DNA of 29,385 nt from positions 1-29,385 of the forward strand of contig JAVHRH010000069.1 in NCBI GenBank assembly GCA_036171555.1, read 5' to 3'. Source of the DNA: Parcubacteria group bacterium (GTDB lineage: Bacteria > Patescibacteriota > Minisyncoccia > Minisyncoccales > JAVHRH01). How positions within the stretch are numbered: the first letter of the stretch is position 1; each line of letters begins with the position of its first letter. Below are positions 2,897-17,870 of this stretch, piece by piece. The translations under genes were made by a program, and so were the position numbers. The notes under the pieces were generated by a model. The model was given only the letters and a program-made list of their open reading frames with translations, was not told where the DNA came from and ran no database searches.

Positions 2897-3370
2897 CTAG
2901 CTAGAATTGTATCTTATTTTCTTTATCTTGTAAGCTGTCTGGATGGGAGAAGAAACAATAACTTTATCGCCCGCCCGATGGCCCAGCAAAGCTTTGCCTA
3001 CCGGCGATTCATTGGAAATCTTACCGACCGAAGGATTGGCCTCCAGAGAACCGACTAAGGTGAATTCATCGTTCTGACCGTCAACTTCCACCGAAACCGT
3101 CGCCCCCAGATTAATGGTATTTTGTCTTTCCTTGTTGGGGCTTTTGATAATTTCAGCATTTTTCAAAGTATTCTCCAATTCGGCCAATCTTATTTCCAAA
3201 AAGCTCAAATCTTCCTGAAAAGCCAAGTATTCGGGATTCAAATCTTCTGAATGTAAAAGCTTCGGAGATTCTCCTTTGGTTTTAGCGAGCTTTAGCTCTT
3301 TCAGATCGCGATATTCCCGTTTTAACCTTTCTAATCCTTCTTTAGTTAAATAAAACTTTTTTTCCTCCAT
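2897..3370 (-). CDS. greA: GreA/GreB-family transcription factor with a divergent coiled-coil tip
   Basis: LT.EG...L N-terminus and C-terminal LVGS.EANP...ISNESPVGKALLG...G signature. The tip reads HSEDLNPEY instead of GDLxENAEY. Confidence 0.85.
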   Translation of the reverse strand: MEEKKFYLTKEGLERLKREYRDLKELKLAKTKGESPKLLHSEDLNPEYLAFQEDLSFLEIRLAELENTLKNAEIIKSPNKERQNTINLGATVSVEVDGQNDEFTLVGSLEANPSVGKISNESPVGKALLGHRAGDKVIVSSPIQTAYKIKKIRYNSS

Positions 3371-3377
3371 GTTTTTT

Positions 3378-3402
3378 ATAAAATCCCCTGTAGCGAGGGG
3401 AC
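3378..3402 (-). terminator. Terminator-like hairpin just upstream of the greA start
   Basis: Minus strand: gtcccct-cgctac-aggggattttat, ending about 8 nt before the ATG. Confidence 0.4.
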
Positions 3403-3605
3403 TTATAGTTTTTAATTAGTGTGGCTATAAATCCTCTCAGCAAATCATTTTACCAAAAGTCAAAACCAAAATGGCGTAAGACCATTTAGCAAGATGAGGA
3501 TTATTTCTGATTTTTTCTTTACTGGTTATTATCATGTTTTAGTTTAGAAAATTAAGTAAGATGTCTTTTTTTCTTTGTTTTCTAAAGTTTCTTTCCGTAT
3601 AATCC

Positions 3606-3634
3606 ATATTAGACAAACCATGAAAGGTTGTCAA
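3606..3634 (-). promoter_or_regulatory. Sigma70-type promoter ahead of the greA leader
   Basis: TTGACA (3634-3629), 17 nt, TAATAT (3611-3606). Confidence 0.55.
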
Positions 3635-3639
3635 GTACC

Positions 3640-3714
3640 AAGCTTTCGCTACGCGAAAGCGCAGGTGGAAAAGAAGATTTATCTTCTTTGACTGCCGAAC
3701 TCCGCTACGCGGAG
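3640..3714 (+). repeat. Double-hairpin element copy A3 plus an extra ctccgc-tac-gcggag hairpin
   Basis: 3640-3692 matches A1, with a compensatory G-C to A-T pair in stem 2 (aaagaAgat..atcTtcttt). Third hairpin at 3700-3714. Confidence 0.85.
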
Positions 3715-3731
3715 CAAGCCGAAAAATAGAG

Positions 3732-4613
3732 TTACACTATCGGCGGATTCCAACCCTTAGGCGTTAGAGGCAATTCCCCGACTGAAACATCAATATGTTT
3801 TACGCCAGATTCTAATCTTATTTCTTTGGCGATGAAATTTTCAATGCTTTCCAAATTAGGCGTAACAATGCTGACTAATAAATTATATCTCCCAGAAATT
3901 TTTACTAAATGATAAACCAAAGGAGATTTTTCAAATTTTTCGATAAGTTGATTAATTGTTTTATTGTCTGCTTCAATTTCAATGTGGGCACTGACTGAAT
4001 ATACTTTTCCCATATTTAACAACCCTTGAATTTTCAAAACTCCGTCTGCTATCAATCTTTCTACACGATTTTTAATGCCGACGGGGCTTAGCCCTGTTCC
4101 TTTGGCAATTTCCACAAATGATTCTCTACCATCTTTGGAAAGAGCCTGAATAATCTTTAAATCCAATCCATCTAGTCTCTCTAAACTCCAAGGCGCATAA
4201 GCAGAATATCCTTCAACAGAAAAATCAGCTAAACCTGTTCTATCGCACAAAACAGCAAATTTTATATCTTTTATTTTTAATCTTTCTTTTTTAGCCCTCA
4301 TCGCCTCCATGGCTCTTTTATAGCTTTTGCCAGAAATTATATCATTATCAACCAACAATATTTTTCTTCCCCTAATCTTTTCCTCTGCCAACATCTTTCC
4401 GTTATCGTCCATCTGGACAAAAATAATATTTTTATTTTTGTGGCTTAACCACTGATAAAGACCTAGACCATAAATGTAGCCATCGTCTCCCAAACCAACA
4501 ATAGCTCCCTTGTCTTTTTTAAAATATTGGACAACGCTTTTGCCGATACCATCGATAAATTTTTGAATTGGCGGAAGATTATAGAGAATATTTTTCGGCA
4601 TATTTTTTAACAT
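3732..4613 (-). CDS. Lrp/AsnC transcriptional regulator with an N-terminal phosphoribosyltransferase-like domain
   Basis: Residues ~1-135 carry a PRPP-loop-like motif (KILLVDNDIISGKS). Residues ~147-293 carry an AsnC HTH (LDGLDLKIIQALSKDGRESFVEIAK..GLS..GIKNRVERL) and a RAM domain (ISGRYNLL). The start may be 4601. Confidence 0.75.
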   Translation of the reverse strand: MLKNMPKNILYNLPPIQKFIDGIGKSVVQYFKKDKGAIVGLGDDGYIYGLGLYQWLSHKNKNIIFVQMDDNGKMLAEEKIRGRKILLVDNDIISGKSYKRAMEAMRAKKERLKIKDIKFAVLCDRTGLADFSVEGYSAYAPWSLERLDGLDLKIIQALSKDGRESFVEIAKGTGLSPVGIKNRVERLIADGVLKIQGLLNMGKVYSVSAHIEIEADNKTINQLIEKFEKSPLVYHLVKISGRYNLLVSIVTPNLESIENFIAKEIRLESGVKHIDVSVGELPLTPKGWNPPIV

Positions 4614-5466
4614 AATATTTTATTAATTGATCTTTAATTTCAGGATTAGCAACCGCAATCAATAAATCAACTTTATCATGCTGCCTCCCGGGAATAAATT
4701 CGTAATCTTTATAATTGCCGTCGGAATCAACGCTAATCACCGAGCAACCGGCACATTTTGCCATCGGAAAACCGGGATCGATTTCCGAACGGGGTTCATC
4801 AAACATTACATAAGCATCAATTAAGCCCGAAGCCAAATAAGCATAAATAAATGAACCGCCCTGTGGATAAAGCAGAGATTTAGAATGCAGATTTTTTAAT
4901 AAATCTCCGAAAATATCCAAGAATTTAGAAGAGTATTGAGAGCTCATTACATAAGAGGCTAAAACAATGGGTTCAGTTATTTTTTTTCTAGATGAGGAAA
5001 AAATTTTCTTCTTCCCATTATTTTTCATATCTAATAGATAGTTTTCACCATTATTCATAATGTAAAATTTTTCATTCAAAATGTCAGCAATTCCAGTGGC
5101 AATTGGTCTTCTTTCTTTGTCATAAAAACTCAGAGCAGTGTACCAATTCTGTTCAAATCCCCTTAAAAAAAGAACTGAACCGTCAAAAGGGTCAATTGAA
5201 CCATAAATTTCAGGATTTTCTCCGCCAGTTTTAATATCTCTACCGTCCGGCTCGGAAAAAATAGTTGCTTTTAATTTGTATTTTTTAACGAGTTTTTCCG
5301 CAATTTCCTCTCCTATTCTATCAATTCCGATTTCAATATCTTCCGGCCGATTTATCACCTCACCCAAAATCTCCCGGCCCTGGCCGGCCGCAGCTCTTTT
5401 CTTGACTTCTTCTGTAGTCAAAGTTAAATAATCAATGAGTAATTTTTTAATTTTTTCCTTGTCCAT
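4579..5466 (-). CDS. Inositol monophosphatase/FBPase-family phosphatase (candidate HisN-type histidinol-phosphate phosphatase)
   Basis: Metal motifs FSE and IDPFDGS, C-terminal EIDPG; lies directly downstream of hisC. Confidence 0.75.
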   Translation of the reverse strand: MDKEKIKKLLIDYLTLTTEEVKKRAAAGQGREILGEVINRPEDIEIGIDRIGEEIAEKLVKKYKLKATIFSEPDGRDIKTGGENPEIYGSIDPFDGSVLFLRGFEQNWYTALSFYDKERRPIATGIADILNEKFYIMNNGENYLLDMKNNGKKKIFSSSRKKITEPIVLASYVMSSQYSSKFLDIFGDLLKNLHSKSLLYPQGGSFIYAYLASGLIDAYVMFDEPRSEIDPGFPMAKCAGCSVISVDSDGNYKDYEFIPGRQHDKVDLLIAVANPEIKDQLIKYYVKKYAEKYSL

Positions 5467-5486
5467 GACTTTTAATTTACACCCAA

Positions 5487-6557
5487 TTAAACCACGCTGT
5501 CAAGCATCTCGCCAAGCGCTTTAATAAGAGATCCTGTATCTTTAAGAGTGCCGATGCTGATTCTAACTGCATCTTGCCCGTCAGCGGCCGATTTGGGCCT
5601 GACCAAAATACCTTTCTCTTTCAATCTTTCTATCAATTCTTTGGGATTGGGAACTTTCAGGAGTAAGTAATTAGCTGCGCTCGGATAAAAGAAAATCCCT
5701 TTTTCTCTCAAAAAATTCTCTAGTTTAGGCTTAGATTCCTCCATAACCTCCTTAATATAAGCTTCCATATATGGAATATCAGCCAAGGCAGACAGAATGC
5801 CGATTTTGGCGAACATATTAACGTCATAAGGTCCTCTGATTTTCAGCAATTCCTGGATATTTTTTCCATTAGAAATGACATAACCCGCCCGGCTCGCCAC
5901 CAACCCAAAAGCTTTGGCGAAAGTCCTTAAAATATAAAGGTTGTCGTATCTTTCTATTAAACCCTTGGCCGTGATTTTAGCGAATTCAAAATAAGCCTCG
6001 TCGTGCAAAACAGCTATATCTTTTTCTTTCGCCTTAATTAAGATTTTTTCAATATCTTCGATGGAAATCGCACTGCCTAAAGGATTATTGGGATTGCAAA
6101 GAATAATCAATTTTACCTTTGGGTCTTCAATTAAATTAATAATTTCGGCCAAAGGCAGTTCTCCCTGTTCATTGTATCGCGGCTCTAAAATTTCGGCTCC
6201 TTGAATGCCGGCTGATTGATAGTGCATGGCAAAAGCCGGAAAAGGAATAATAACTTTATCCCCTTCGCCTAAATAAGCACGGCAGACAAGATCAATTCCC
6301 TGGTCGCCGCCATTAGTCACCATAGCTTCGTCCGCTTTTACTCCGGCATATTCGGCAATCTTTGCCTCCAAATCACCGTATTCCGGATAAACCTGTAATC
6401 TGTCTAGGTCAACAAACTTTCTCAAGGCCTCTTTGACTTTGAGGCTGGCCGGAGTCGTCCTCTCGTTGAAATCTAAAAGTAAATAATCTTTAGAACCGCG
6501 CCCTTCGAGGGGCGGTTTGTAATGACCCATTTTTTTGATTCTGTCTTTGATTGCCAT
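5487..6557 (-). CDS. hisC: Histidinol-phosphate aminotransferase
   Basis: Class I/II PLP motifs NE, TNGGDQGI, CNPNNPLG, DEAY, RTFAKAFGL..RAGY (PLP Lys), ANY, RISIG; adjacent to hisB. Confidence 0.85.
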   Translation of the reverse strand: MAIKDRIKKMGHYKPPLEGRGSKDYLLLDFNERTTPASLKVKEALRKFVDLDRLQVYPEYGDLEAKIAEYAGVKADEAMVTNGGDQGIDLVCRAYLGEGDKVIIPFPAFAMHYQSAGIQGAEILEPRYNEQGELPLAEIINLIEDPKVKLIILCNPNNPLGSAISIEDIEKILIKAKEKDIAVLHDEAYFEFAKITAKGLIERYDNLYILRTFAKAFGLVASRAGYVISNGKNIQELLKIRGPYDVNMFAKIGILSALADIPYMEAYIKEVMEESKPKLENFLREKGIFFYPSAANYLLLKVPNPKELIERLKEKGILVRPKSAADGQDAVRISIGTLKDTGSLIKALGEMLDSVV

Positions 6558-6561
6558 TTTT

Positions 6562-7152
6562 TTAAATTAAACCTTTAGTGCTTGGTAATTCTTGTAAAAT
6601 TCTTTTTTCTTTTGAACAGGCCATTTTCATGGCTTTACCGAAAGCCTTAAAGAGCGATTCGGCTTTATGGTGCTCATTTTCTCCGTATAAAATTCTGACG
6701 TGCAGGGTTGCTTCGGCATGCCTGACAAAACCCCAAAAAAATTCCTTAATTAAGTCCGAATATAAATCGCCAATTTTTTCTTTTTTGAACTGACAATCAA
6801 AATTTAAAAATGTCCTGCCGGAGATATCTGCCGACACTACCGAAAGCGCCTCATCTAAGGGAAAAACAAAATAACCGGACCGATTAATTCCTCTATTGTC
6901 GCCAAGGGCTTCTTTAAAAGCTTCGCCAAGACAAATACCAATATCTTCTACTAAATGATGCTGGTCAATTTCAATATCACCCTTAGCTTTAATCGTTAAA
7001 TTAAATAGTCCGTGTTTGGCAAAATTATTCAAAAGATGATCCAAAAAAGGAATGGAAGTGGAAATGTTTGCCTTGCCCGTTCCATCGATATTTAATTCTA
7101 TTTTTATATTGGTTTCTTTGGTTTTCCTTTGAAATAACGTTTTTCTTGACAT
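6562..7152 (-). CDS. hisB: Imidazoleglycerol-phosphate dehydratase (monofunctional)
   Basis: RKTKET, PFLDH, two HHxxE motifs (DQHHLVED, NEHHKAE), PLDEAL and terminal PSTKG. ATG 7152 follows an extended -10 box. Confidence 0.95.
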   Translation of the reverse strand: MSRKTLFQRKTKETNIKIELNIDGTGKANISTSIPFLDHLLNNFAKHGLFNLTIKAKGDIEIDQHHLVEDIGICLGEAFKEALGDNRGINRSGYFVFPLDEALSVVSADISGRTFLNFDCQFKKEKIGDLYSDLIKEFFWGFVRHAEATLHVRILYGENEHHKAESLFKAFGKAMKMACSKEKRILQELPSTKGLI

Positions 7153-7159
7153 ATGTGTT

Positions 7160-7195
7160 ATTTTATCATTATTTGACAAAAATTCAAATAATGAT
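7160..7195. promoter_or_regulatory. Divergent promoter region with a perfect 12-7-12 palindrome
   Basis: ATCATTATTTGA-caaaaat-TCAAATAATGAT (7165-7195). It overlaps the hisB extended -10 TGaTAAAAT (7168-7160, minus) and a TTGACA at 7173-7178 (plus). Confidence 0.6.
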
Positions 7196-7233
7196 GTATT
7201 GTAAAATATGTTCTTTATAGGGAGGTATTAATA

Positions 7234-8031
7234 ATGGAGAAAAAAATTCAGGCTATCTTGGTGGATATCGATGACTGTCTGCTGCCGACTGATGGCTACC
7301 CGTACATAGGCTACTTTCAGGGTCTGCAAATAATCGCCGGGTATGTGAAAAAAGCAAATGAAGGAAGATTTCCCAAAATAAGTTTTTGCACGGGACGGGA
7401 CAGGAATTACGTCGAAGCGGTTGCTTTCTCTGTCGGCCGACCCAATTCCTGGTCGGTAATTGAAAGCGGCATTGCTCTTTTCAACCCGACAACCAAAGAA
7501 CTAGTTTTAAATCCCGCCTTGACCCCAAAAGTCAAAGATGCGTTCGAAATCATTCGACAAGAAAGATTGCCGGGGATTCTCAACAGATTCACAGGACTAT
7601 TTGATTACCCAGGCAATATGATCAACATAGCCCTGGAACGCAAATTCGGGATAGATACTCCGATTGAACAGTGCTATGCCGCAGTCAGGGAAGAACTCCA
7701 AGACCTAGAAAGCCAAGGATTAGTGACTATCCGCCACAGCCGGATTGCCGTGGATATCAGTCCTCAGGGAATCGATAAGGCTTCGGGCATACGATTTCTG
7801 TCTGAAAAGACCGGAGTGCGCCCCAGCCAAATGCTGGGCATCGGAGATTCAAAAGGAGATTTCCCGATGTTAAATCTGGTCGGCTATGTCGGCTGTCCCG
7901 ATAACGCTAGCAAGGAATGCAAAGAGTTGGTCAGAAAGCGGCAAGGTCATCCTTCTCGCGCCGAATATGCTAAAGGCGTAGAAGACGTCATTAATCACTT
8001 CCGAATACATCATCTCATCGATGAGGGCTAA
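7234..8031 (+). CDS. HAD-superfamily hydrolase, subfamily IIB (Cof/SPP-like)
   Basis: Motif I VDIDDCL, motif II CTGR, motif III DKASG, motif IV GDSKGDFPML; SD AGGGAGGT at 7219-7226. Confidence 0.88.
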   Translation: MEKKIQAILVDIDDCLLPTDGYPYIGYFQGLQIIAGYVKKANEGRFPKISFCTGRDRNYVEAVAFSVGRPNSWSVIESGIALFNPTTKELVLNPALTPKVKDAFEIIRQERLPGILNRFTGLFDYPGNMINIALERKFGIDTPIEQCYAAVREELQDLESQGLVTIRHSRIAVDISPQGIDKASGIRFLSEKTGVRPSQMLGIGDSKGDFPMLNLVGYVGCPDNASKECKELVRKRQGHPSRAEYAKGVEDVINHFRIHHLIDEG

Positions 8032-9022
8032 TCCGCTCCAGCCCTCTTTTTTTTATAAGTTTATAAAGAAATTCAATTCCTTCGGTTCTTTTTAAAACAT
8101 AATCTTTAAAGTATTTTTTTCCTTTTGGATTACTCACCGAAAAATAACGAAGCAGGCCCCACCATACTTGCATAACTGGAACCGCTATCGCCAACCAATA
8201 AATTTGATTTCTGTCAAAACACTGATTGTATACTTCATCAACGACTTTTAGAAACTTATCGTACAGAGTTTTATCGACCGGTGGATTGCGAAAAACGTTA
8301 TCGGCAAAAAAATAGCCCAAATCGTATAAAATTCCTCCCCTTTCGTTCATTCCGGCATATTCAAAATCTAACAGATATAACTTGCCATCATTCCCAACGA
8401 TAATGTTTTGGAAAAGAAAATCATTATGCGCCGGAACTCCTTTTTTAAGAATAGTAATTTTATTCTTAACTTCTTTCTCAATCTTTTTCAAATTTAAAAT
8501 AGTTTTTATATCTATAAATTTAGGTATGGCATGTCTTTCAACGGCAACTCTATATTTAGCAAGCTCATCACGAAAAACATCATATTCATTAACAAAACAG
8601 ACGTCGCTCGTATGAAAAATATTAAATAATTTCGCTAATTTTTCCTGATATCTCTTTGTTTTAAAAAGAGACAAGTCAAATAACTTTCCTTCAATATATT
8701 CGGCCAGCATTGTGCCGTCAGGCAGGTTAAAAGTTTCGCGGCTCTTTGGATTCAGAATATTTTTATTATTCAAAATATACAAATAATATCTTGGCAAAAT
8801 CTGCTTTAATTTTTTGTTCCTGTTTAAAGCTAAAATGTTTTTCCCTTCAATTTTCCTGTTGATAACAGCTGTTTCCCAGGGCAAACGAACAAAAAATTTC
8901 TTGTTTTCATGTTGAACAATATAATTCCTGTTCGTCTGTCCGCCGGCCTTGGTAATTTTAATATTTTCCGGCCGCCAGTCCTTATTCAGACGAGAAATCA
9001 ATTGAATATCTTTTTTAATCAT
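8015..9022 (-). CDS. Choline/ethanolamine/thiamine-kinase-family (APH-like) phosphotransferase
   Basis: GGQTNRNY loop, Brenner motif HNDFLFQNI and LLDFEYAG motif; start overlaps the hisD stop. Confidence 0.85.
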   Translation of the reverse strand: MIKKDIQLISRLNKDWRPENIKITKAGGQTNRNYIVQHENKKFFVRLPWETAVINRKIEGKNILALNRNKKLKQILPRYYLYILNNKNILNPKSRETFNLPDGTMLAEYIEGKLFDLSLFKTKRYQEKLAKLFNIFHTSDVCFVNEYDVFRDELAKYRVAVERHAIPKFIDIKTILNLKKIEKEVKNKITILKKGVPAHNDFLFQNIIVGNDGKLYLLDFEYAGMNERGGILYDLGYFFADNVFRNPPVDKTLYDKFLKVVDEVYNQCFDRNQIYWLAIAVPVMQVWWGLLRYFSVSNPKGKKYFKDYVLKRTEGIEFLYKLIKKRGLERISPHR

Positions 9023-10205
9023 TACATTTGAACCTTATTTCAACAGATTTTTTGTGGGCGTCTAATCCTTCCATCTCAGCAAATTTTGAAGCAACTTTAG
9101 CTAGTTTTTTAGCACCCTTTTTATTTATATATTGGTATGTTGGTATTTTAACAAAATCTTTCACTGATAATCCACCAGTATATCTAGCCGTTTTGTTGGT
9201 AGGGAGAACATGGTTTGTTCCTGAACAATAATCGCCAAAAGCTACGGCTGAATAATCGCCGAGAAAAAGAGAACCATAATTCTCAAATTGGTTAAGGTAA
9301 CTTTTTGCATTTTTAACCTGAACTGACAAGTGCTCCGGAGCTATTTTATTGGCGATTTTAATCGCCTCCGCTAAATTTTTAACTAAGATTGTCTTTTTAT
9401 TTTTGAACGCCCTTTTGATTATATTTTTCGTTACCAGTTTTTCGATTTGAAGTTTTAATTCATTATTTACTTTTTTGATTAAATCTTTAGAGTCGGTAAC
9501 AAAAAATATTTTTGTCATCACGTCGTGTTCGGCCTGACCTAAGAGATCGGCGGCGATGAATTTGGGATTAGCATATTTATCAGCCACTAATAAAATTTCA
9601 GTCGGACCGGCTAAAAGATCGATCCCGCAATCCCCGAAAATTTCCTTTTTAGCCGTAGTAACGTAGATATTTCCAGGTCCGACAATTTTATCTACTTTTG
9701 GCACAGTTTTAGTTCCGTAGGCCATGGCCGCTACGGCCTGAACGCCACCAATATTAAAAATTGAATCGGCTCCAGCTAAATCGGCTGCGACTATTGTCGT
9801 TGGTCTTATTTTCGGCGAACAAACAATAATTTTTTTTACGCCCGCCACTATAGCTGGAACGATGCACATCAAAGAAGTCGAGGGTAATGGATATCTGCCC
9901 CCTGGAACATAAACTCCTATTTTTTCGATCGGAATAATTTTCTGCCCAATCGTTATTCCATTCTTTGTATATTCAAAATCTTTAAAATTCCGGAATTGAG
10001 CCATGGCAAACTCCTTGATATTTTTAGCTGCAACTTTTATTGTCTTAACGGTTTCTTTATCCACCATTTTATAAGCCATGGCTATTTCTTTTCTGCTCAC
10101 TCTAAAATTATTCAATTTAATCTTATCGAAAACCTCCGTATATTTTCTGACGGCTTTATCTCCGTTTTTCTTCACATCTTCAATTATATTTTTTACTGTT
10201 CCCAT
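9015..10205 (-). CDS. hisD: Histidinol dehydrogenase
   Basis: YVPGG, GGVQAVAAMAYG, KIVGPGN, GID..AGPTE, QAEHD (Zn ligands), APEHL (catalytic), GDY.SGTNHVLPT and EGLDAH. Confidence 0.9.
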   Translation of the reverse strand: MGTVKNIIEDVKKNGDKAVRKYTEVFDKIKLNNFRVSRKEIAMAYKMVDKETVKTIKVAAKNIKEFAMAQFRNFKDFEYTKNGITIGQKIIPIEKIGVYVPGGRYPLPSTSLMCIVPAIVAGVKKIIVCSPKIRPTTIVAADLAGADSIFNIGGVQAVAAMAYGTKTVPKVDKIVGPGNIYVTTAKKEIFGDCGIDLLAGPTEILLVADKYANPKFIAADLLGQAEHDVMTKIFFVTDSKDLIKKVNNELKLQIEKLVTKNIIKRAFKNKKTILVKNLAEAIKIANKIAPEHLSVQVKNAKSYLNQFENYGSLFLGDYSAVAFGDYCSGTNHVLPTNKTARYTGGLSVKDFVKIPTYQYINKKGAKKLAKVASKFAEMEGLDAHKKSVEIRFKCND

Positions 10206-10278
10206 GTTCTTAAATTGCCCTATTTAAAATCTATCATTTTGTCTTAATTCTGTAAAAGTTTTAAAATAAGATATTGCT

Positions 10279-11100
10279 ATGGAAATTATTTTGGCGAAAA
10301 ATATCGGATTTTGCTCTGGAGTCAAAAGGGCGGTTTTGATAGCTGAAAAAGCATTAAAAGAAGATAAAAAACCTATCCAGTTTTTGGGCGGTTTGGTTCA
10401 TAATGAAAAAGTAATTGAAAAATTCAGAAAAAAAGGCGTCAAATTTATTAAAACATTAAAAGAGGCCAAGCCCGGCACTTTGATTATTCAAGCTCACGGT
10501 ATCGCTCCTTTTTCCAAAAAAATAAACAAAAATATAGTCATCAGAGACGCCACTTGTCCTTTGGTTAAAAAAGCCCAATTAATTGCCAGATCTTTATACC
10601 AACAAGGATTTCAAGTAATTATTATCGGCGACAAAAAACACTCGGAAACCAAAGGAATCAAAGGTTATACTGATAATACGGCTCTAATCGTGGAAAACGA
10701 AAAAATAGCGGCAAAACTACCTAATTTTAAAAAAATCGGCGTTATCTCCCAAACTACGCAAGACTTAAAAAACGTTGAAAAAGTTTTGAATGTTTTGCAA
10801 AAAAAGGCAAAAGAAATAAAATTTATCAATACTCTCTGTCCGGAAACGCAGAACCGCCAGAAAAAATTAAACTTGCTTTTAAAAAAAACAGATGCTATTT
10901 TAGTAATTGGTTCAAAAAAATCGGCCAATACCGGCCGTCTGGTTAAAATCAGTGAAAATGCCGGTAAAGCCGCCTGGTCAATCAATTCCTTATCAGAGCT
11001 AAAGAAAATCAATTTAAAAAATATTTCTAATCTGGGAGTGATTTCCGGAACATCAGCCCCAAATTGGCTGATAAAAAAGATCGTTGACAAAATAAGGTGA
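10279..11100 (+). CDS. ispH: 4-hydroxy-3-methylbut-2-enyl diphosphate reductase (IspH/LytB)
   Basis: Three cluster cysteines (GFCSGV, DATCPLV, NTLCPET), plus HN, HG, H.E, QTT, S..SANT and GTSAP motifs. Confidence 0.92.
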   Translation: MEIILAKNIGFCSGVKRAVLIAEKALKEDKKPIQFLGGLVHNEKVIEKFRKKGVKFIKTLKEAKPGTLIIQAHGIAPFSKKINKNIVIRDATCPLVKKAQLIARSLYQQGFQVIIIGDKKHSETKGIKGYTDNTALIVENEKIAAKLPNFKKIGVISQTTQDLKNVEKVLNVLQKKAKEIKFINTLCPETQNRQKKLNLLLKKTDAILVIGSKKSANTGRLVKISENAGKAAWSINSLSELKKINLKNISNLGVISGTSAPNWLIKKIVDKIR

Positions 11101-11398: not shown

Positions 11399-12676
11399 TC
11401 AAAACAAAGTCTTTTGTTGATTTACTTCTTTTTTCTCTCCTTGGGGGAAAATTCTGATTTTACCAAAAACGCCGTCATAACCCGGCTCTTTGGAAACCTT
11501 TCCTTCTCTGACCCTGATAATGCCTTCGGCTATTTCCGGCCGAGTTACGGTAGCCAAATCCGATCGGGAAACATCAAGCAGAATGTTAAATTCCGAACCG
11601 AATTTTTCAATTAAAATTTTATATTCTTTTTCTACTTCTTTAGTGCCAACTCCCAGATTTAAAACATCAGCGATAATCTCGGCTAAAGGAACTAAACTTT
11701 TGAAAGGTATGGTATTTTGAGGCGCAAAACCTTCTGGCCTGTCAGCCAATTCTTCGACTCGATTCAAGACACCGACGGTTAAGGGCCGGCCGCAAACCGG
11801 GCAAATACCGTTGTATTTTTTCGTTTCTTGGGGCGACAACTTAACATTGCAAACGCGATGGCCGTCAAAATGATATTTGCCTTCTTCGGGAAAGAATTCG
11901 ATGGTATAAAGAAATTTTCCCGCCCCGTTAGAAATTTGATTTCTAACGGGGTAAAGATTTTTTCCTCTGATTACATTAATAATTCCTAAGTAAGACAATT
12001 CCGTATCAAAAACATTAGCTTCCCGGCCGATTTTTTGCGGCGAATGAGCATCTGAATTGCTTATTAAGGTAACCTTGTCCAGGGCAGACAATCGCCAATT
12101 CATAGAGGGGTCAGAAGAAAGTCCCGTTTCAATGGCATAAATATATTTGGCATATTCGTCAAAACATTCTTCAATCGAATCAAAGCCTGATTTGGAACCG
12201 AAAATAGCAAACCAAGGCGTCCAAGCGTGCGCCGGCACCACTAAGCAATCGGGGGAAGCGTTCAAAACGATTTTAGCTAATTCTTTAGCGTCCAAACCCA
12301 AAATCGGCCGGCCGTCTGATCTTAAATTGCCGATCCAACCCAACTGCGCATTGATTTTCTCTACTATTTCGAAAGAGGGCGCAAAAATAATAATATGAAC
12401 TTTCCTAACCTTTCCTCCCTTCGTATAGATGCAACTGATTTCCGTGGTCAGAATAAAACGGGTGCCACCATCTTGCTTTAACTTAAATAGACCCGACTCA
12501 GCCGGTATCAGTTTTTCTTTTAAATTGGCAAACCATTCAGGATGAGTGAAATCGCCTGTGCCCAAAACTTTAATGCCTTTGATTTTGGCCCATTTATCCA
12601 AACTTTCCAAATCCATATCGTGGCTGGTTGCCCGAGAATATTTACTATGGATATGAAAGTCGGCTATGAATTCCAT
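11399..12676 (-). CDS. Endonuclease Q-family protein (PHP domain plus Zn ribbon)
   Basis: ADFHIHSKYSRATS, GTGDFTHP, PAHAWTPW, ETGLSSD, SNSDAHS, GKYHFDGHR.C, CPVCG and PGYDGVFG motifs. Start set at MEFIAD. Confidence 0.85.
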   Translation of the reverse strand: MEFIADFHIHSKYSRATSHDMDLESLDKWAKIKGIKVLGTGDFTHPEWFANLKEKLIPAESGLFKLKQDGGTRFILTTEISCIYTKGGKVRKVHIIIFAPSFEIVEKINAQLGWIGNLRSDGRPILGLDAKELAKIVLNASPDCLVVPAHAWTPWFAIFGSKSGFDSIEECFDEYAKYIYAIETGLSSDPSMNWRLSALDKVTLISNSDAHSPQKIGREANVFDTELSYLGIINVIRGKNLYPVRNQISNGAGKFLYTIEFFPEEGKYHFDGHRVCNVKLSPQETKKYNGICPVCGRPLTVGVLNRVEELADRPEGFAPQNTIPFKSLVPLAEIIADVLNLGVGTKEVEKEYKILIEKFGSEFNILLDVSRSDLATVTRPEIAEGIIRVREGKVSKEPGYDGVFGKIRIFPQGEKKEVNQQKTLF

Positions 12677-13827
12677 AAGGGTAATTGAGAGATGGCTCCC
12701 AAAACAAAAATAATCATTAAAAAATACAATAGCCAACCGGGTATTTTCAAGCTATATTCCGGCAGCCTGTCGCCCAAGGTTTTGGCCTTTTTGAAAATCA
12801 AAATAATAATTATTCCTTCAATAACACCGACGAAGGCGCCGATAAAACCAATGATGTTAATAAAGCTGCGCAAACCTAACAGATAGAGGAGGAAGGGAAA
12901 ACCTGTCGCAATTAAAAAAGACATTTCCCCAGGAAATTTCAAGTCGTGAATAAAGGTATTCATCAGATAAAGACCCAAAACCAGGAAAGAATCGGCCAGG
13001 GTGATAACGCCGGCTAAAACTCCTAAAAGAACCAGCTTTTGGCCTAAAACGGACAGTAAACCGGAGAAAAGATCGGGTGAAATATTTTTACCGGAAATCC
13101 CAATCAGAATAAAGGAAAAACAAAGATAAAAAGCAATGACAATGATTGCCGATAAAATGATTATCTTTTTTATTTCTTTTTTCTCGGCTGAACTTTTAAG
13201 GAGATCATTAATCTCGGGCAAAGCCGACCAGCCCACCAAAGAAAAGAGGATAACTCCGTAAGGCAAAAGAACGTTGGCTGAACTTAAAAACGCAAAATTT
13301 GAAAAGTCTAGTTGAGGCAGGCCGAACCAAAGAATCAGAAAGATGGCGGCAAAAAAGAGGACATTGGTAAAAATTTCGGCCGGGGCAATTATTTTTAGCC
13401 CTCTCCAGATGAAATAAGACAAAACTAGCCAAAAAATAAAAACGAACCAAAAAGATGATGGCGAACCGATTGACGGAAAGACGGCGGAAAATAAAATTTT
13501 CAGAAAATCACCTCCCAGAATGATATAGGCTAAAAGGCTGCCGACTACCCCGAAGAGAACCGAAAAAACAGCTAAAATTTCGCCGGGTTTACCCAGATAT
13601 TTTTTAGCGAAACCGGGCAAGCGATATTTTTCATTGGTTCTCAAAATTATTTCGCCAAAAAATAAGTGAATCAAAGTGACGGCTGCTCCCAATATCAAGA
13701 GATAAAAAAAGCCGGGGATAATCCCGCTTCTGTCGATGACGTAAGGCAAACCGAAGATGCCAGCCCCTATAGTTGTCCCAAGCAAAACCGAAAGAGAGAG
13801 AAAAAAACGTTTGTTGCTGAGAAACAT
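12664..13827 (-). CDS. Aromatic amino acid permease family transporter (Trp/Tyr permease / AAAP-like)
   Basis: GTTIGAGIFGLPY motif, about 11 hydrophobic helices, PYGVILFS. Confidence 0.8.
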   Translation of the reverse strand: MFLSNKRFFLSLSVLLGTTIGAGIFGLPYVIDRSGIIPGFFYLLILGAAVTLIHLFFGEIILRTNEKYRLPGFAKKYLGKPGEILAVFSVLFGVVGSLLAYIILGGDFLKILFSAVFPSIGSPSSFWFVFIFWLVLSYFIWRGLKIIAPAEIFTNVLFFAAIFLILWFGLPQLDFSNFAFLSSANVLLPYGVILFSLVGWSALPEINDLLKSSAEKKEIKKIIILSAIIVIAFYLCFSFILIGISGKNISPDLFSGLLSVLGQKLVLLGVLAGVITLADSFLVLGLYLMNTFIHDLKFPGEMSFLIATGFPFLLYLLGLRSFINIIGFIGAFVGVIEGIIIILIFKKAKTLGDRLPEYSLKIPGWLLYFLMIIFVLGAISQLPLWNS

Positions 13828-15625: not shown

Positions 15626-16327
15626 TTATTTTCCCGCTACAATATAAATATTAGTTCTCGGATCTTTTCCCTCGCGCCAAACTTCTTTTATTTTGAATCC
15701 GGCTTCTTTGGTTAAACTTACAATTTTTTCTTTGGTAAAACAATGGAAATATCTTTGGACAACAACTTTTCCTTTATCATTTTTCCAGGGGACAAAAACA
15801 TCAAAAAAATCAAACTTTGTCTTGCCTAATAGTTTTAAAAAAGCGTATTTCAAAAAAAGCTTCCAACCTTCTTTTCTTTTCCAAAAATCCCAAACCCTTA
15901 ACATCAATATGCCTCCCGGCCGCAAAACCCTTTTCGCTTCTTTCAAATATCGAATTTGGAAATCTTTCGAAGGAATATTATGTAAAACGGAAATGCTATA
16001 AACCTTATCGAAAAAATTATCGGGAAATGGTAGATTTAAAGCATCGGCTATTTCAAACTTAGCTTCGGGATAACTTTTTTTGGCGATACCAATCAATTCT
16101 TCAGACGAATCTATCCCGAAATAATCTACTTTTTTATCTTTCAAAACGCTGAAAAATCGACCGCTGGCACAACCCGAATCTAAAATTTTATCGCTTTCTT
16201 TGGCGTAATCAGCTAATAATTTGATGTCTTCAGGGATAAAAGACCTTGTTCTGGTATAGTCTTTGGCGGTTAAATTATAATTTCTTCTGGTTTCTTCTAA
16301 CAGATATTTAGCGTAATTTATATCCAT
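15626..16327 (-). CDS. Class I SAM-dependent methyltransferase, Trm9/ALKBH8-like
   Basis: ILDSGCASGR (motif I), GIDSS, ADALNLPF, SISVLHN, DVFVPW and RYFHCF. Start set at MDINY (16327); the track's longer start lies antisense inside elp3. Confidence 0.8.
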   Translation of the reverse strand: MDINYAKYLLEETRRNYNLTAKDYTRTRSFIPEDIKLLADYAKESDKILDSGCASGRFFSVLKDKKVDYFGIDSSEELIGIAKKSYPEAKFEIADALNLPFPDNFFDKVYSISVLHNIPSKDFQIRYLKEAKRVLRPGGILMLRVWDFWKRKEGWKLFLKYAFLKLLGKTKFDFFDVFVPWKNDKGKVVVQRYFHCFTKEKIVSLTKEAGFKIKEVWREGKDPRTNIYIVAGK

Positions 16328-17870
16328 GAATGTCTTAGAAAAAGCAATTTTAGATTTAATCAAAACGAAAATTAAAGATTCCGATGGTTTGGCTTTGGCT
16401 AAAAGGAAAATGGCCAAAAAATATCGAACACAGTGTCCCTCCAATATCTCTCTACTCAAAATCTACCATGAATTAGCCAAAAAAGGAAAAATTAAAAAAT
16501 CGCTTAATTTTGAATCGCTTTTGAAAACAAGGCCGATCCGTTCGCTTTCCGGCATTGTCAATATCTCGGCTCTAACCAAACCTTATCCTTGCCCGGGGAA
16601 ATGTTTATACTGTCCGATTGAAAGGGGCATTCCCAAAAGTTATGTTTCCGGTGAACCGGCCGTGGAAAGAGCTAAAAAATTAAACTTTGATCCTTATTTG
16701 CAAACCAAAAAAAGAATTGAAATGCTGGAATCGGAAGGCCATCCGACAGATAAAATAGAGCTGAGAATTATCGGCGGCACTTGGAGTTATTATCCCGAAG
16801 CTTACCAAGAATGGTTTATAAAAAAATGCTTTGAGGCTTGCAACGAAAAAGCCGGCCAAACCCTGAAAGATGATCAAAAATTTAACGAGAGAGCAAAACA
16901 TCGAATGGTTGGCTTATCTGTTGAAACCAGGCCTGATTTTATCAATAAAAAAGAACTCGAACATTTGAGAGAATTGGGAGTCACCATGGTAGAATTGGGC
17001 GTTCAATCGATTTATGACGATATCTTGAAAAAGAACCTCAGGGGCCATGGCGTTAAAGAAACAATTTTGGCCACTAAACTGTTAAAAGATGCCGGGTTCA
17101 AGGTTTTGTATCAGATGATGCCAAATTTATTGGGCTCCAGTTTAAAAAAAGACGAAAAAATGTTCGAGGAATTATTCAAAAATCCCGCTTTTCAGCCGGA
17201 TTTGCTGAAAATTTATCCCTGCGCCTTATTAAAAACAGCTCAATTGTATCGCTCTTGGCAAAAGAAAAAATACCGGCCTTATACGGAAAAACAACTGATA
17301 AAACTGGTTGAAACGATTAAAAAGAAAATTCCTTACTATGTCAGAATCCAAAGGATCACCAGAGATATTCCTTCCAAAACTATTGTGTCAGGCCCGGCTA
17401 AAATTTCCAACCTGCGCCAAATTTTGCTTGAAGATATGGAAAAAAATAAATGGCACTGCCACTGTATCAGATGCCGAGAGATAAAAGAAAATTACGACCC
17501 GAAGGAAAAAATTTATCTTTTCAGAGAAAACTATTTGGCCTCAGACGGTCAGGAGATATTTTTAAGTTTTGAAAATAAAACCAGGTCAAAACTTTATAGT
17601 CTGCTTAGGTTGCGTCTTGCTTCCGACCGTCTAGCTGTCATCCGTGAACTCCACACTTACGGTCAACAATTATCAATTGGTCGAGGTTCGACCTCGACCA
17701 ATTCACCGCAGCATAAAGGATTGGGTAAAAAACTGATAAAAGAAGCCGAAAAAATTGCCAAAAAAGAATTTAAGATAAAAAAAATCAGCGTTATTTCCGG
17801 CGTCGGCGTCAGGGATTATTTCAGGCAACTGGGCTATAAATTAGAGAATACTTATATGGTAAAAAGTTAA
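16326..17870 (+). CDS. elp3: Elp3-family radical SAM/GNAT tRNA uridine(34) acetyltransferase
   Basis: CPGKCLYC cluster motif, GGTW, ETRPD, ELGVQS, RGHG, MPNL, PDLLKIYP, RITRDIP, CHCIRCRE, RELHTYG, QHKGLG and GVGVRDYF. Confidence 0.92.
   Translation: MNVLEKAILDLIKTKIKDSDGLALAKRKMAKKYRTQCPSNISLLKIYHELAKKGKIKKSLNFESLLKTRPIRSLSGIVNISALTKPYPCPGKCLYCPIERGIPKSYVSGEPAVERAKKLNFDPYLQTKKRIEMLESEGHPTDKIELRIIGGTWSYYPEAYQEWFIKKCFEACNEKAGQTLKDDQKFNERAKHRMVGLSVETRPDFINKKELEHLRELGVTMVELGVQSIYDDILKKNLRGHGVKETILATKLLKDAGFKVLYQMMPNLLGSSLKKDEKMFEELFKNPAFQPDLLKIYPCALLKTAQLYRSWQKKKYRPYTEKQLIKLVETIKKKIPYYVRIQRITRDIPSKTIVSGPAKISNLRQILLEDMEKNKWHCHCIRCREIKENYDPKEKIYLFRENYLASDGQEIFLSFENKTRSKLYSLLRLRLASDRLAVIRELHTYGQQLSIGRGSTSTNSPQHKGLGKKLIKEAEKIAKKEFKIKKISVISGVGVRDYFRQLGYKLENTYMVKS
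17675..17703. repeat. Perfect 13-3-13 palindrome inside elp3
   Basis: aattggtcgaggt-tcg-acctcgaccaatt, encoding part of SIGRGSTSTNS between RELHTYG and QHKGLG. Confidence 0.8.

What the first reader, a model, noticed from the sequence alone, without database searches (positions are those of the whole stretch)
8015..9022. Choline-kinase-family gene coupled to hisD: candidate histidinol or imidazoleglycerol kinase
Seen: its start overlaps the hisD stop by 8 nt, and the HxD...N and DFEYA motifs are intact. Established: this family phosphorylates small amino-alcohols and hydroxyl groups (choline, ethanolamine, thiamine), and the canonical His pathway has no kinase step. Inference: it phosphorylates imidazoleglycerol to feed HisB, or histidinol to give Hol-P. 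Either would be an activity I do not recall being described.
Basis: inference. Interest (0 to 1): 0.68.

Follow-up and report, generated by a model that had tools for sequence, protein, structure and literature searches.

The report
Kinase built into histidine operon
A choline-kinase-like enzyme found only in one group of tiny uncultured (CPR) bacteria is a fixed part of their histidine gene cluster. It most likely re-phosphorylates scavenged imidazole glycerol, so that cells which lost the first half of the pathway can still run the second half; no such enzyme activity turned up in the papers I could search.

Summary
ORF 8015-9022 (-) encodes a 335-aa choline/ethanolamine-kinase-fold protein with intact catalytic motifs, and its ATG overlaps the hisD stop by 8 nt.

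It belongs to a small, sharply separated kinase family confined to one Patescibacteria order (Paceibacter, Wildermuth-, Nealsonbacteria). The ancestral setting is a special his operon: hisAF-hisI-hisG'-hisG-hisD-KINASE-(HAD phosphatase)-hisB-hisC-IMPase-like-regulator.

The window's genome is 578 kb and 94% complete. It has no hisG, hisI, hisE, hisA or hisF, but keeps hisD, the kinase, hisB, hisC, two phosphatases and the regulator.

- In the genomes sampled, IGP dehydratase occurs without IGP synthase only where this kinase is present (10 of 10). All 12 kinase-less IGPD genomes have HisA/F.
- At least five different upstream deletions all stop at the kinase or at hisD.
- One homologue is a HisD::kinase fusion.

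Best reading (about 45%): an imidazole-glycerol kinase that feeds HisB. Rivals are a histidinol kinase, a kinase acting on IGP, and an unrelated amino-alcohol kinase carried along in the operon.

Unexplained: many relatives keep kinase-hisB-hisC under purifying selection but have no hisD.

This is comparative inference only; the substrate is untested. Earlier notes of this scan report other kinase-fold genes in CPR his operons.

The parts
8015..9022 (-). His-operon kinase (335 aa, P0001). It has a choline/ethanolamine-kinase fold and is the candidate imidazole-glycerol kinase.
   Evidence: Pfam PF01633 58.2 bits. Nearest solved structure is LicA 4R77, E 4e-12. AF2 pLDDT 92.3 and Foldseek top hits LicA, EtnK and ChoK. 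Catalytic motifs are invariant in the family.
9015..10205 (-). hisD, histidinol dehydrogenase. Its stop overlaps the kinase start by 8 nt.
   Evidence: PF00815 530.7 bits and TIGR00069 519.5 bits. The same hisD-kinase junction is seen in G324, G372, G408 and G440.
7234..8031 (+). HAD-IIB phosphatase, convergent with the kinase; the 3' ends overlap by 17 nt. Candidate histidinol-phosphate phosphatase.
   Evidence: PF08282 49.9 bits and TIGR01484 42.6 bits. Motifs DIDDC and GDSKGD are present. A HAD gene sits in this slot in most relatives, but its sequence turns over fast.
6562..7179 (-). hisB, monofunctional imidazoleglycerol-phosphate dehydratase.
   Evidence: PF00475 206.1 bits; NF002111 267 bits, above its cut-off of 231. 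Both HHxxE motifs and the R, R and STKG residues are conserved.
5487..6557 (-). hisC-like histidinol-phosphate aminotransferase.
   Evidence: PF00155 154.7 bits; TIGR01141 259.6 bits, just under its cut-off of 276.55. It is 70-78% identical to orthologues in four hisD-less relatives (G335, G387, G337, G401).
4579..5466 (-). Divergent IMPase-fold phosphatase (second candidate histidinol-phosphate phosphatase). It is not a HisN orthologue.
   Evidence: PF00459 33.7 bits; TIGR02067 HisN only 21.9 bits against a cut-off of 275. The DPFDGS metal motif is present. Weak PDB matches to inositol monophosphatases.
3732..4613 (-). Regulator: PRTase-like N-domain fused to an AsnC/Lrp HTH and a RAM ligand-binding domain. 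It is the last gene of the module.
   Evidence: HTH_AsnC 42.8 bits, AsnC_trans_reg 35.7 bits, Pribosyltran 24.9 bits, which is below its cut-off. It occupies this position in nearly all related loci.

Best explanation
The gene encodes a small-molecule kinase that is a fixed component of a lineage-specific 'K-type' histidine operon. Its most likely job is ATP-dependent phosphorylation of the primary hydroxyl of D-erythro-imidazole glycerol (IG), giving imidazole-glycerol phosphate (IGP).

In this genome the enzymes that normally make IGP (HisG, HisE/I, HisA, HisF) are gone. The kinase would therefore be the only source of substrate for HisB. The route would run: IG (scavenged) -> kinase -> IGP -> HisB -> imidazole-acetol-P -> HisC -> histidinol-P -> HAD or IMPase-like phosphatase -> histidinol -> HisD -> histidine.

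In relatives that still have the whole operon, the same enzyme would recover IG lost through phosphatase side activity.

Shown: the fold, the intact catalytic residues, the operon membership, the gene losses and the co-occurrence pattern. Inferred: the substrate and the direction of flux.
For: **1. The upper pathway is missing.** The own genome (578 kb, 94.5% complete) has no match to HisA/F, HisG, PRA-CH or PRA-PH. It keeps orthodox hisB, hisC and hisD.

**2. Phyletic rule.**
- In a 151-genome sample of the order, 16 genomes have IGPD.
- The 10 of these that lack a true HisA/F all carry the kinase.
- The 3 kinase-less IGPD genomes of the order and all 9 IGPD genomes of a 301-genome phylum sample have HisA/F.

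**3. Ancestral context.** It is a full operon, hisAF-hisI-hisG'-hisG-hisD-K-(HAD)-hisB-hisC-IMP-REG, seen in G440 (Ca. Paceibacter normanii) and G372.

**4. Deletions stop at the kinase.** Relatives show at least five different upstream deletion boundaries: lytB|hisD, PRS|hisD, PRS|K, RTC|K and EndoQ|K. None removes the kinase.

**5. The kinase stays next to hisB** through rearrangements: K>HAD<hisB>, K>hisB<HAD< and hisD>hisB>K>. This holds in 31 of 34 loci with enough flank.

**6. IGPD is needed beside the kinase.** In two close relatives, hisB in the same slot has been swapped for a 41%-identical version, while greA and EndoQ are 95-97% identical.

**7. Purifying selection.** K, hisB, hisC and the HAD all have dN/dS of 0.04-0.23 in lineages lacking the upper pathway; IMP has 0.06 in two pairs and REG 0.10 in one.

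**8. The family is distinct.** It is separated from generic choline-kinase-like proteins by a stem of about 2 substitutions per site.

**9. No prior report found.** No paper in the searchable library mentions an imidazole-glycerol or histidinol kinase.
Against: - No biochemical test was done.
- The pocket keeps the features that bind a cationic amine in choline and ethanolamine kinases: T30, D201, Y222, an acidic residue at D241 that matches LicA Glu213, and W288. These suit an amino alcohol such as histidinol at least as well as IG.
- Three family members sit alone, away from any his gene. Two of their genomes have no IGPD or HisC. Yet they keep most family-conserved residues.
- Seven of 13 kinase-bearing genomes in the order sample have no hisD. 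The 'min' variant also lacks hisC. There the route cannot end in histidine.
- One relative (L038) has lost hisB but keeps the kinase.
- The kinase-bearing genomes are kin, so the co-occurrence counts are not independent.
- No environmental source or importer of IG is identified.
Confidence: 0.45

Rival explanations
1. Histidinol kinase, or a kinase for another dephosphorylated late intermediate such as imidazole acetol. It would phosphorylate histidinol to histidinol phosphate, for example to trap imported histidinol or to buffer it next to HisD.
For: - Histidinol is a substituted ethanolamine. The fold, the aromatic pocket and the acidic residue that pairs with the amine in LicA and ChoK are retained.
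- hisD is directly upstream with overlapping stop and start in at least five families.
- P0123 is a HisD::kinase fusion.
- The paralogous K2 subclade sits next to hisD or the IMPase-like phosphatase.
Against: - Together with the cluster's phosphatases it would form a futile cycle.
- Histidinol needs only HisD to become histidine.
- It does not explain why hisB survives without IGP synthase only where the kinase is present.
- It does not explain why the kinase stays with hisB in genomes lacking hisC and hisD.
- The fusion is seen on a single short contig, and one frameshift could create it from the 8-nt overlap.
Confidence: 0.15
2. A kinase that acts on IGP itself. It would phosphorylate a secondary hydroxyl to give a better leaving group, that is, an ATP-driven aid to or substitute for the dehydratase step. 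Earlier notes of this scan proposed this for other kinase-fold genes that stand in for hisB in CPR his operons.
For: - Earlier scan notes e1-5218671, e1-1320437 and e1-4069766 are leads only.
- L038 keeps K-HAD-hisC-IMP-REG with hisB deleted, and no IGPD is found in that genome.
- L013 has hisD-K-IMP-REG with no hisB or hisC in between.
- R292 is conserved as a basic residue (Arg, or Lys in P0117) next to the WW pocket motif in the core family. It might bind a phosphate, and it is E, Q or K in the derived K2 subclade.
Against: - In this family the kinase and IGPD co-occur rather than alternate (31 of 34 loci).
- IGPD next to it is the most strongly constrained gene of the cluster (dN/dS 0.04-0.08). 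It is even replaced by another IGPD when lost.
- Without HisF there would be no IGP to act on.
- The kinases in the earlier notes share no detectable close similarity with this family.
Confidence: 0.1
3. An amino-alcohol kinase (choline, ethanolamine or a similar substrate) with a job unrelated to histidine. It would merely have been fixed inside the ancestral his operon and stays there for lack of its own promoter.
For: - Its closest characterised relatives are choline and ethanolamine kinases.
- Lone family members exist in genomes without IGPD or HisC. One lies among YfhO/PTPS-related envelope glycosyltransferase-like membrane proteins.
- Those lone members keep most conserved residues.
- As the operon decays in different lineages, the kinase is among the last genes left.
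Against: - 31 of 34 loci keep it beside hisB through inversions and reshuffling.
- A duplicated copy (K2) was again inserted inside the his cluster.
- A HisD fusion exists.
- The lone members sit on long derived branches nested inside the his-linked family, which fits later transfer and change of function.
- The own genome has no LicD.
- It leaves orphan hisB-hisC without any substrate.
Confidence: 0.2

Closest known systems
LicA choline kinase of Streptococcus pneumoniae (PDB 4R77, 4R7B) and eukaryotic choline/ethanolamine kinases (PF01633)
   Same: - Protein-kinase-like fold (Foldseek TM 0.69-0.82).
- P-loop GGxTN with Thr30 matching LicA Thr29.
- Brenner motif with D201 matching Asp176 and N206 matching Asn181.
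- D219, E221 and Y222 matching Asp194, Glu196 and Tyr197.
- An acidic residue (D241) at the position of Glu213.
   Different: - Only about 22% identity.
- A 3-residue insertion inside the choline-kinase motif (N-x6-Y-D instead of N-x3-W-D).
- A roughly 25-residue insertion at residues 71-100.
- A WW pair and a basic residue at 292 (Arg, or Lys in P0117) that are specific to the family.
- Different genomic context: a his operon rather than a lic operon, and no LicD in the genome.
Salvage kinases that re-enter a biosynthetic pathway with a dephosphorylated intermediate (ThiM hydroxyethylthiazole kinase, ThiK thiamine kinase, homoserine kinase type II); named from general knowledge
   Same: Same logic: ATP-dependent phosphorylation of a scavenged alcohol, so that the remaining downstream enzymes can use it. 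ThiK and homoserine kinase II share the APH/ChoK fold (2PPQ is among the Foldseek hits; ThiK model TIGR02721 gives a weak hit).
   Different: No such kinase is described for the histidine pathway: no paper in the library mentions one. It is not a ThiK member, scoring 29.8 bits against a cut-off of 299.45.
APH(3')-like ORF inside the Lactococcus lactis his operon (ymdC; Delorme et al. 1992, recalled from memory)
   Same: A kinase-fold gene of the same superfamily embedded in a histidine operon, with no known role.
   Different: It belongs to a different branch of the superfamily and a different phylum. I could only confirm that ymdC is annotated as kanamycin kinase. Its place in the operon is from memory and was not checked.
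Kinase-fold genes reported by earlier notes of this scan as standing in for hisB in other CPR his operons (e1-5218671, e1-1320437, e1-4069766)
   Same: CPR bacteria, a his operon and an uncharacterised small-molecule kinase, sometimes paired or fused with a HAD phosphatase.
   Different: There the kinase is said to alternate with IGPD; here the two co-occur. No close sequence similarity to this family was found. Those notes are unchecked AI leads.

Membership tests
Choline/ethanolamine kinase family (PF01633), APH / protein-kinase-like fold | Score above the Pfam gathering threshold | tested here: met
   58.2 bits against a cut-off of 29; APH 32.1 against 23.2.
Choline/ethanolamine kinase family (PF01633), APH / protein-kinase-like fold | ATP-binding P-loop and Brenner phosphotransferase motif (CS)HNDhxxxN | tested here: met
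   GGQTNRN at residues 27-33 and (A)HNDFLFQN at 198-206. The HNDhxxxN core matches, but the residue before His is Ala in the window's protein (Thr or Ser in most relatives) rather than Cys or Ser. G28, T30, N31, H199, N200, D201 and N206 are invariant in 38 members. The motif definition comes from PMC4364537.
Choline/ethanolamine kinase family (PF01633), APH / protein-kinase-like fold | [quoted passage not shown] | tested here: inconclusive
   The sequence is L215-YL-L-D219-F-E221-Y222-AGM-N226, then six residues (not three) before Y233-D234, then x6-D241 (Asp, not Glu). The core is kept, but the spacing and the last residue differ.
Choline/ethanolamine kinase family (PF01633), APH / protein-kinase-like fold | Three-dimensional fold | tested here: met
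   AF2 pLDDT 92.3 and pTM 0.88. Foldseek top hits are LicA 4R7B (E 1.4e-13), Plasmodium vivax ethanolamine kinase 2QG7 and human ChoK.
Choline/ethanolamine kinase family (PF01633), APH / protein-kinase-like fold | Phosphorylates choline or ethanolamine | not testable with these tools
   Needs an enzyme assay.
lic phosphorylcholine decoration system (LicA with LicB, LicC, LicD) | Kinase encoded with, or in a genome that has, a LicD phosphocholine transferase | tested here: not met
   No LicD (PF04991) in the own genome. The neighbours are his genes.
Thiamine kinase ThiK (TIGR02721) and guanitoxin kinase GntI (NF041256) | Score above the NCBIfam equivalog cut-off | tested here: not met
   ThiK 29.8 against 299.45; GntI 62.7 against 357.
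Histidine operon component (functional membership) | Conserved placement among his genes across lineages and rearrangements | tested here: met
   hisB is adjacent in 31 of 34 loci. hisD is upstream with overlap in several families. It sits in the full operon in G440 and G372. A HisD fusion exists.
Histidine operon component (functional membership) | Acts on a histidine-pathway intermediate | not testable with these tools
   Inferred only from the phyletic pattern.

The most novel reading that the evidence does not exclude
The protein is an imidazole-glycerol kinase. It would open a salvage entry into the second half of histidine biosynthesis, an activity and a route that no paper I could search mentions. 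This would explain how ultra-small CPR bacteria can delete the six IGP-forming steps and still keep hisB.

The kinase-IGPD pair persists even where hisC and hisD are gone. That hints at a further, unknown use of imidazole-acetol (phosphate) or histidinol in these symbionts.
Probability: 0.4. Interest if true: 0.8.

Novelty: new variant of a known kind. Interest (0 to 1): 0.7.

Why it matters
The histidine pathway is a textbook case of an invariant, kinase-free route, and its dephosphorylated by-products such as imidazole glycerol are regarded as dead ends. A dedicated kinase that brings such a compound back would be a new enzyme activity. It would also be a new example of how genome-reduced symbionts live on their neighbours' leaked intermediates.

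It would change how 'incomplete' amino-acid pathways in CPR genomes are scored in metabolic reconstructions. It may also give a second reading to the other kinase-fold genes that this scan has met in CPR his operons.

The claim is directly testable with one purified protein, or with one complementation experiment in an E. coli his mutant.

Tried and rejected
- **Single HisF-like genes in same-order genomes without IGPD** (G053, G410, G427). I fetched them hoping for his operons in which a kinase replaces hisB. None of their neighbours matched any of my his-gene reference proteins by BLAST, so these are not his operons. Dropped.
- **The only phylum-sample hit outside the order** (G043, 26% identity). 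It is an ordinary choline-kinase-like gene next to glutamate dehydrogenase, not his-linked.
- **The conserved upstream PHP-domain gene.** I considered it as a PHP-type histidinol-phosphatase. It is an Endonuclease Q homologue (PDB 5ZB8, E 2e-55), so it is only a flanking gene.
- **The 'hisH' next to the HisD::kinase fusion.** It is a Peptidase_C26-type amidotransferase, not HisH.
- **Promoter and terminator scan of 3300-10600.** It gave no more sites than shuffled sequence. Rfam found only a tRNA in the window, with no T-box or leader.
- **ESM Atlas.** It returned only generic APH and ChoK clusters.
- **Delorme 1999 paper on the L. lactis his operon.** It is not held, so that parallel rests on memory.
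Full report
**Observation.**
- ORF 8015-9022 on the minus strand encodes a 335-aa protein, P0001.
- The ORF just upstream, 9015-10205 (-), is an orthodox histidinol dehydrogenase (PF00815 530.7 bits; TIGR00069 519.5 bits).
- On the minus strand the junction reads AAT GAT TAA with the kinase ATG inside it. The 8-nt overlap is therefore real.
- P0001 matches Pfam Choline_kinase (58.2 bits, cut-off 29) and APH.
- It carries GGQTNRN, HNDFLFQN and DFEYAG.
- The nearest solved protein by sequence is pneumococcal LicA (4R77, E 4e-12).
- An AlphaFold2 model built on 38 family members has pLDDT 92.3. Its best structural matches are LicA, Plasmodium ethanolamine kinase and human choline kinases.
- No NCBIfam equivalog is reached: GntI 62.7 of 357, ThiK 29.8 of 299.

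**The surrounding genes.** The gene sits in a 6.5-kb block, in this order:
1. hisD (-)
2. the kinase (-)
3. a convergent HAD-IIB phosphatase (+)
4. hisB, a monofunctional IGPD (-)
5. hisC (-)
6. a very divergent IMPase-fold phosphatase with its DPFDGS metal motif (-)
7. a regulator made of a PRTase-like domain fused to an AsnC/Lrp HTH and a RAM domain (-)

greA follows. The upstream PHP-domain gene is an Endonuclease Q homologue and is only a flank.

The whole genome is 578 kb in 77 contigs and 94.5% complete. It has no match to HisA/HisF, HisG, PRA-CH or PRA-PH. Only the IGP-to-histidine half of the pathway is encoded, together with a kinase.

**The family.**
- Sequence searches find about 230 relatives, all from Patescibacteria metagenomes.
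- An exhaustive search of 1.8 billion cluster representatives finds only about 15 clusters below 1e-30. Scores then drop sharply to generic choline-kinase-like proteins at about 1e-15.
- On trees the family is monophyletic, with a stem of about 2 substitutions per site.
- In an even sample of 301 genomes of the phylum, only the window's own genome has it.
- In 151 genomes of its order, 13 have it, spread over 10 GTDB families.
- Named members include Ca. Paceibacter normanii and Wildermuth-, Nealson- and Tagabacteria.

**Ancestral context.** Two genomes, G440 (Ca. Paceibacter normanii AAA255-P19) and G372, carry a full operon. Its order is hisA-hisF fusion, hisI, two tandem long-form hisG paralogues, hisD, kinase, (HAD on the other strand), hisB, hisC, IMPase-like, regulator, greA. 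A PRPP-synthetase-like gene, RTC and lytB lie divergently upstream.
- These K-type operons have no HisE and no HisH.
- Two (G343, G361) of the three kinase-less genomes of the same order that carry IGPD and HisA/F have HisE and an operon-linked HisH; the third (G437) has HisH-like genes beside its HisA/F genes but no HisE match.
- hisD-linked kinases are scattered over the family tree. The hisD-kinase junction is therefore old, and hisD was lost repeatedly.

**Census of 39 species-level loci.**
- hisB lies within one or two genes of the kinase in 31 of the 34 loci with enough flank.
- The arrangements seen are K>HAD<hisB>hisC>IMP>REG>, K>hisB<HAD<REG> (the 'min' form of Wildermuthbacteria), hisD>hisB>K>HAD (here a HAD-IA, PF13419) and hisD>K>hisB<hisC>.
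- The upstream deletion boundary differs between lineages: lytB|hisD in this window, PRS|hisD, PRS|K, RTC|K, EndoQ|K and lytB|K. The first half of the operon was therefore deleted several times independently, and the deletions always stop at hisD or at the kinase.
- A paralogous subclade (K2) sits between hisC and the IMPase-like gene, or directly after hisD.
- One member of that subclade is a 759-aa HisD::kinase fusion with a full-length kinase domain. It is seen on one short contig only.

**Phyletic pattern.**
- In the order sample, 16 genomes have IGPD.
- Six of them have a genuine HisA/F (E below 1e-55). Three of those six carry the kinase and three do not.
- The other ten lack HisA/F, and all ten carry the kinase. 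One of them, G408, is ambiguous because its contig breaks inside hisG.
- In the phylum sample the nine other IGPD genomes all have HisA/F and none has the kinase.
- So in what was searched, IGPD without IGP synthase is seen only together with this kinase.
- These genomes are related, so the counts are not independent. The several distinct deletion boundaries argue for repeated events.

**The truncated modules are alive.**
- Between pairs of relatives lacking the upper pathway, dN/dS is 0.06-0.23 for the kinase, 0.04-0.08 for hisB and 0.05-0.10 for hisC.
- For the HAD, dN/dS is 0.07-0.22. The IMPase-like gene gives 0.06 in two pairs (and 0.16 over a 54-codon fragment), and the regulator 0.10 in the one pair where it could be estimated.
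- HisC in four hisD-less genomes (G335, G387, G337, G401) is 70-78% identical to the window's.
- All IGPD variants keep both HHxxE motifs, the two arginines and STKG.
- L039 and L041 are close kin (greA 97% and EndoQ 95% identical). Their hisB genes in the same slot are only 41% identical, so one IGPD was replaced by another beside the kinase.

**Interpretation.** HisB has no known substrate other than IGP, and IGP has no known source other than HisF. The kinase is the only enzyme in the module that makes a phosphate ester.
- The simplest reading that gives every gene of this window a job is therefore an imidazole-glycerol kinase feeding HisB, followed by HisC, a phosphatase and HisD. I put this at about 45%.
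Histidinol is a substituted ethanolamine. The LicA residues that hold the hydroxyl (Thr29, Asp176) and the cationic amine (Tyr197, Glu213, Trp) have counterparts T30, D201, Y222, D241 and W288. It also fits the HisD fusion.
- But histidinol kinase would be futile next to two phosphatases, and it leaves orphan hisB unexplained.
- A third reading comes from earlier notes of this scan on other CPR operons: the kinase phosphorylates IGP to drive the dehydration. It is disfavoured here because kinase and IGPD co-occur and IGPD is the most constrained gene. L038, which has lost hisB but keeps the kinase, keeps this reading alive.
- A fourth reading is an unrelated amino-alcohol kinase carried along in the operon. 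Three lone family members support it: L049 among YfhO-like membrane proteins, L064 and L025. The genomes of L049 and L064 have no IGPD or HisC, and these members retain most conserved residues.
- Against the fourth reading, the lone members sit on long derived branches nested inside the his-linked family, and the own genome has no LicD.

**What stays unexplained.**
- Seven of the 13 kinase genomes in the order sample, plus G446 and G447, have no hisD at all. G446, of the 'min' form, also has no hisC orthologue.
- There the kinase-IGPD route would end in histidinol or imidazole acetol, whose use is unknown.
- The module carries two phosphatases where one would do.
- The HAD slot turns over quickly: 33-35% identity where the kinase is 66-70% identical.
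- The full K-type operons lack HisE.

**Novelty.**
- A full-text search found no paper mentioning an imidazole-glycerol or histidinol kinase. Searches on Patescibacteria and histidine found nothing relevant.
- From memory, the Lactococcus lactis his operon contains an APH(3')-like ORF (ymdC) of unknown role. I could confirm only its annotation as kanamycin kinase.
- The protein is a new, narrowly distributed subfamily of a known kinase fold. Its likely role, a kinase step entering the histidine pathway, is not described in any paper I could search.

**Verdict.** The substrate remains to be tested at the bench.

Noticed in passing
L018:11075-12885 (G440) and L019:9601-11362 (G372): Two tandem long-form HisG paralogues (HisG + HisG_C each, one much more divergent) lie in the K-type full his operons. 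These operons also lack HisE and HisH.
   Followed up: partly
L018:13149-14621; L019:5313-6782: hisA and hisF are fused into one protein of about 490 aa (two His_biosynth domains, 493-503 bits).
   Followed up: no
L019:7114-9617: argG and argH (argininosuccinate synthase and lyase) are inserted between hisI and hisG inside the his operon of G372.
   Followed up: no
L039:9008-9706 versus L041:4524-5204: In two closely related Wildermuthbacteria the IGPD gene next to the kinase is only 41% identical, while flanking genes are 95-97% identical. This is replacement of one hisB by another in the same slot.
   Followed up: partly
L038:6310-6562: One Wildermuthbacteria genome keeps kinase-HAD-hisC-IMPase-regulator, but hisB is gone from its slot (a 253-nt gap). 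No IGPD was found in that 0.4-Mb assembly.
   Followed up: partly
window 3732-4613 (-): The regulator has a PRTase-like N-domain (loop ILLVDNDIISGKS) fused to an AsnC HTH and a RAM domain. It is conserved as the last gene of the module in nearly all relatives.
   Followed up: partly
window 11399-12736 (-); L010:5444-8041: The conserved upstream gene is an Endonuclease Q homologue (PDB 5ZB8, E 2e-55). In one relative it is 865 aa with a faint intein-splicing hit, so it may carry an intein.
   Followed up: partly
G401 (=G454) contig C19:24800-28800: This genome has a second his-like cluster with a 414-aa ORF holding two IGPD-like domains, two HisC-like genes and one HisA/F-like gene. This is in addition to the kinase-type cluster on contig C13.
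   Followed up: no
window 15626-17870: A bacterial Elp3-like radical-SAM/GNAT protein is divergently paired with a class I methyltransferase, and their start codons interlock.
   Followed up: no
L049:2940-14506: A lone kinase homologue in a Levyibacteriota genome is surrounded by four or five paralogous YfhO/PTPS-related polytopic membrane proteins (glycosyltransferase-like).
   Followed up: partly
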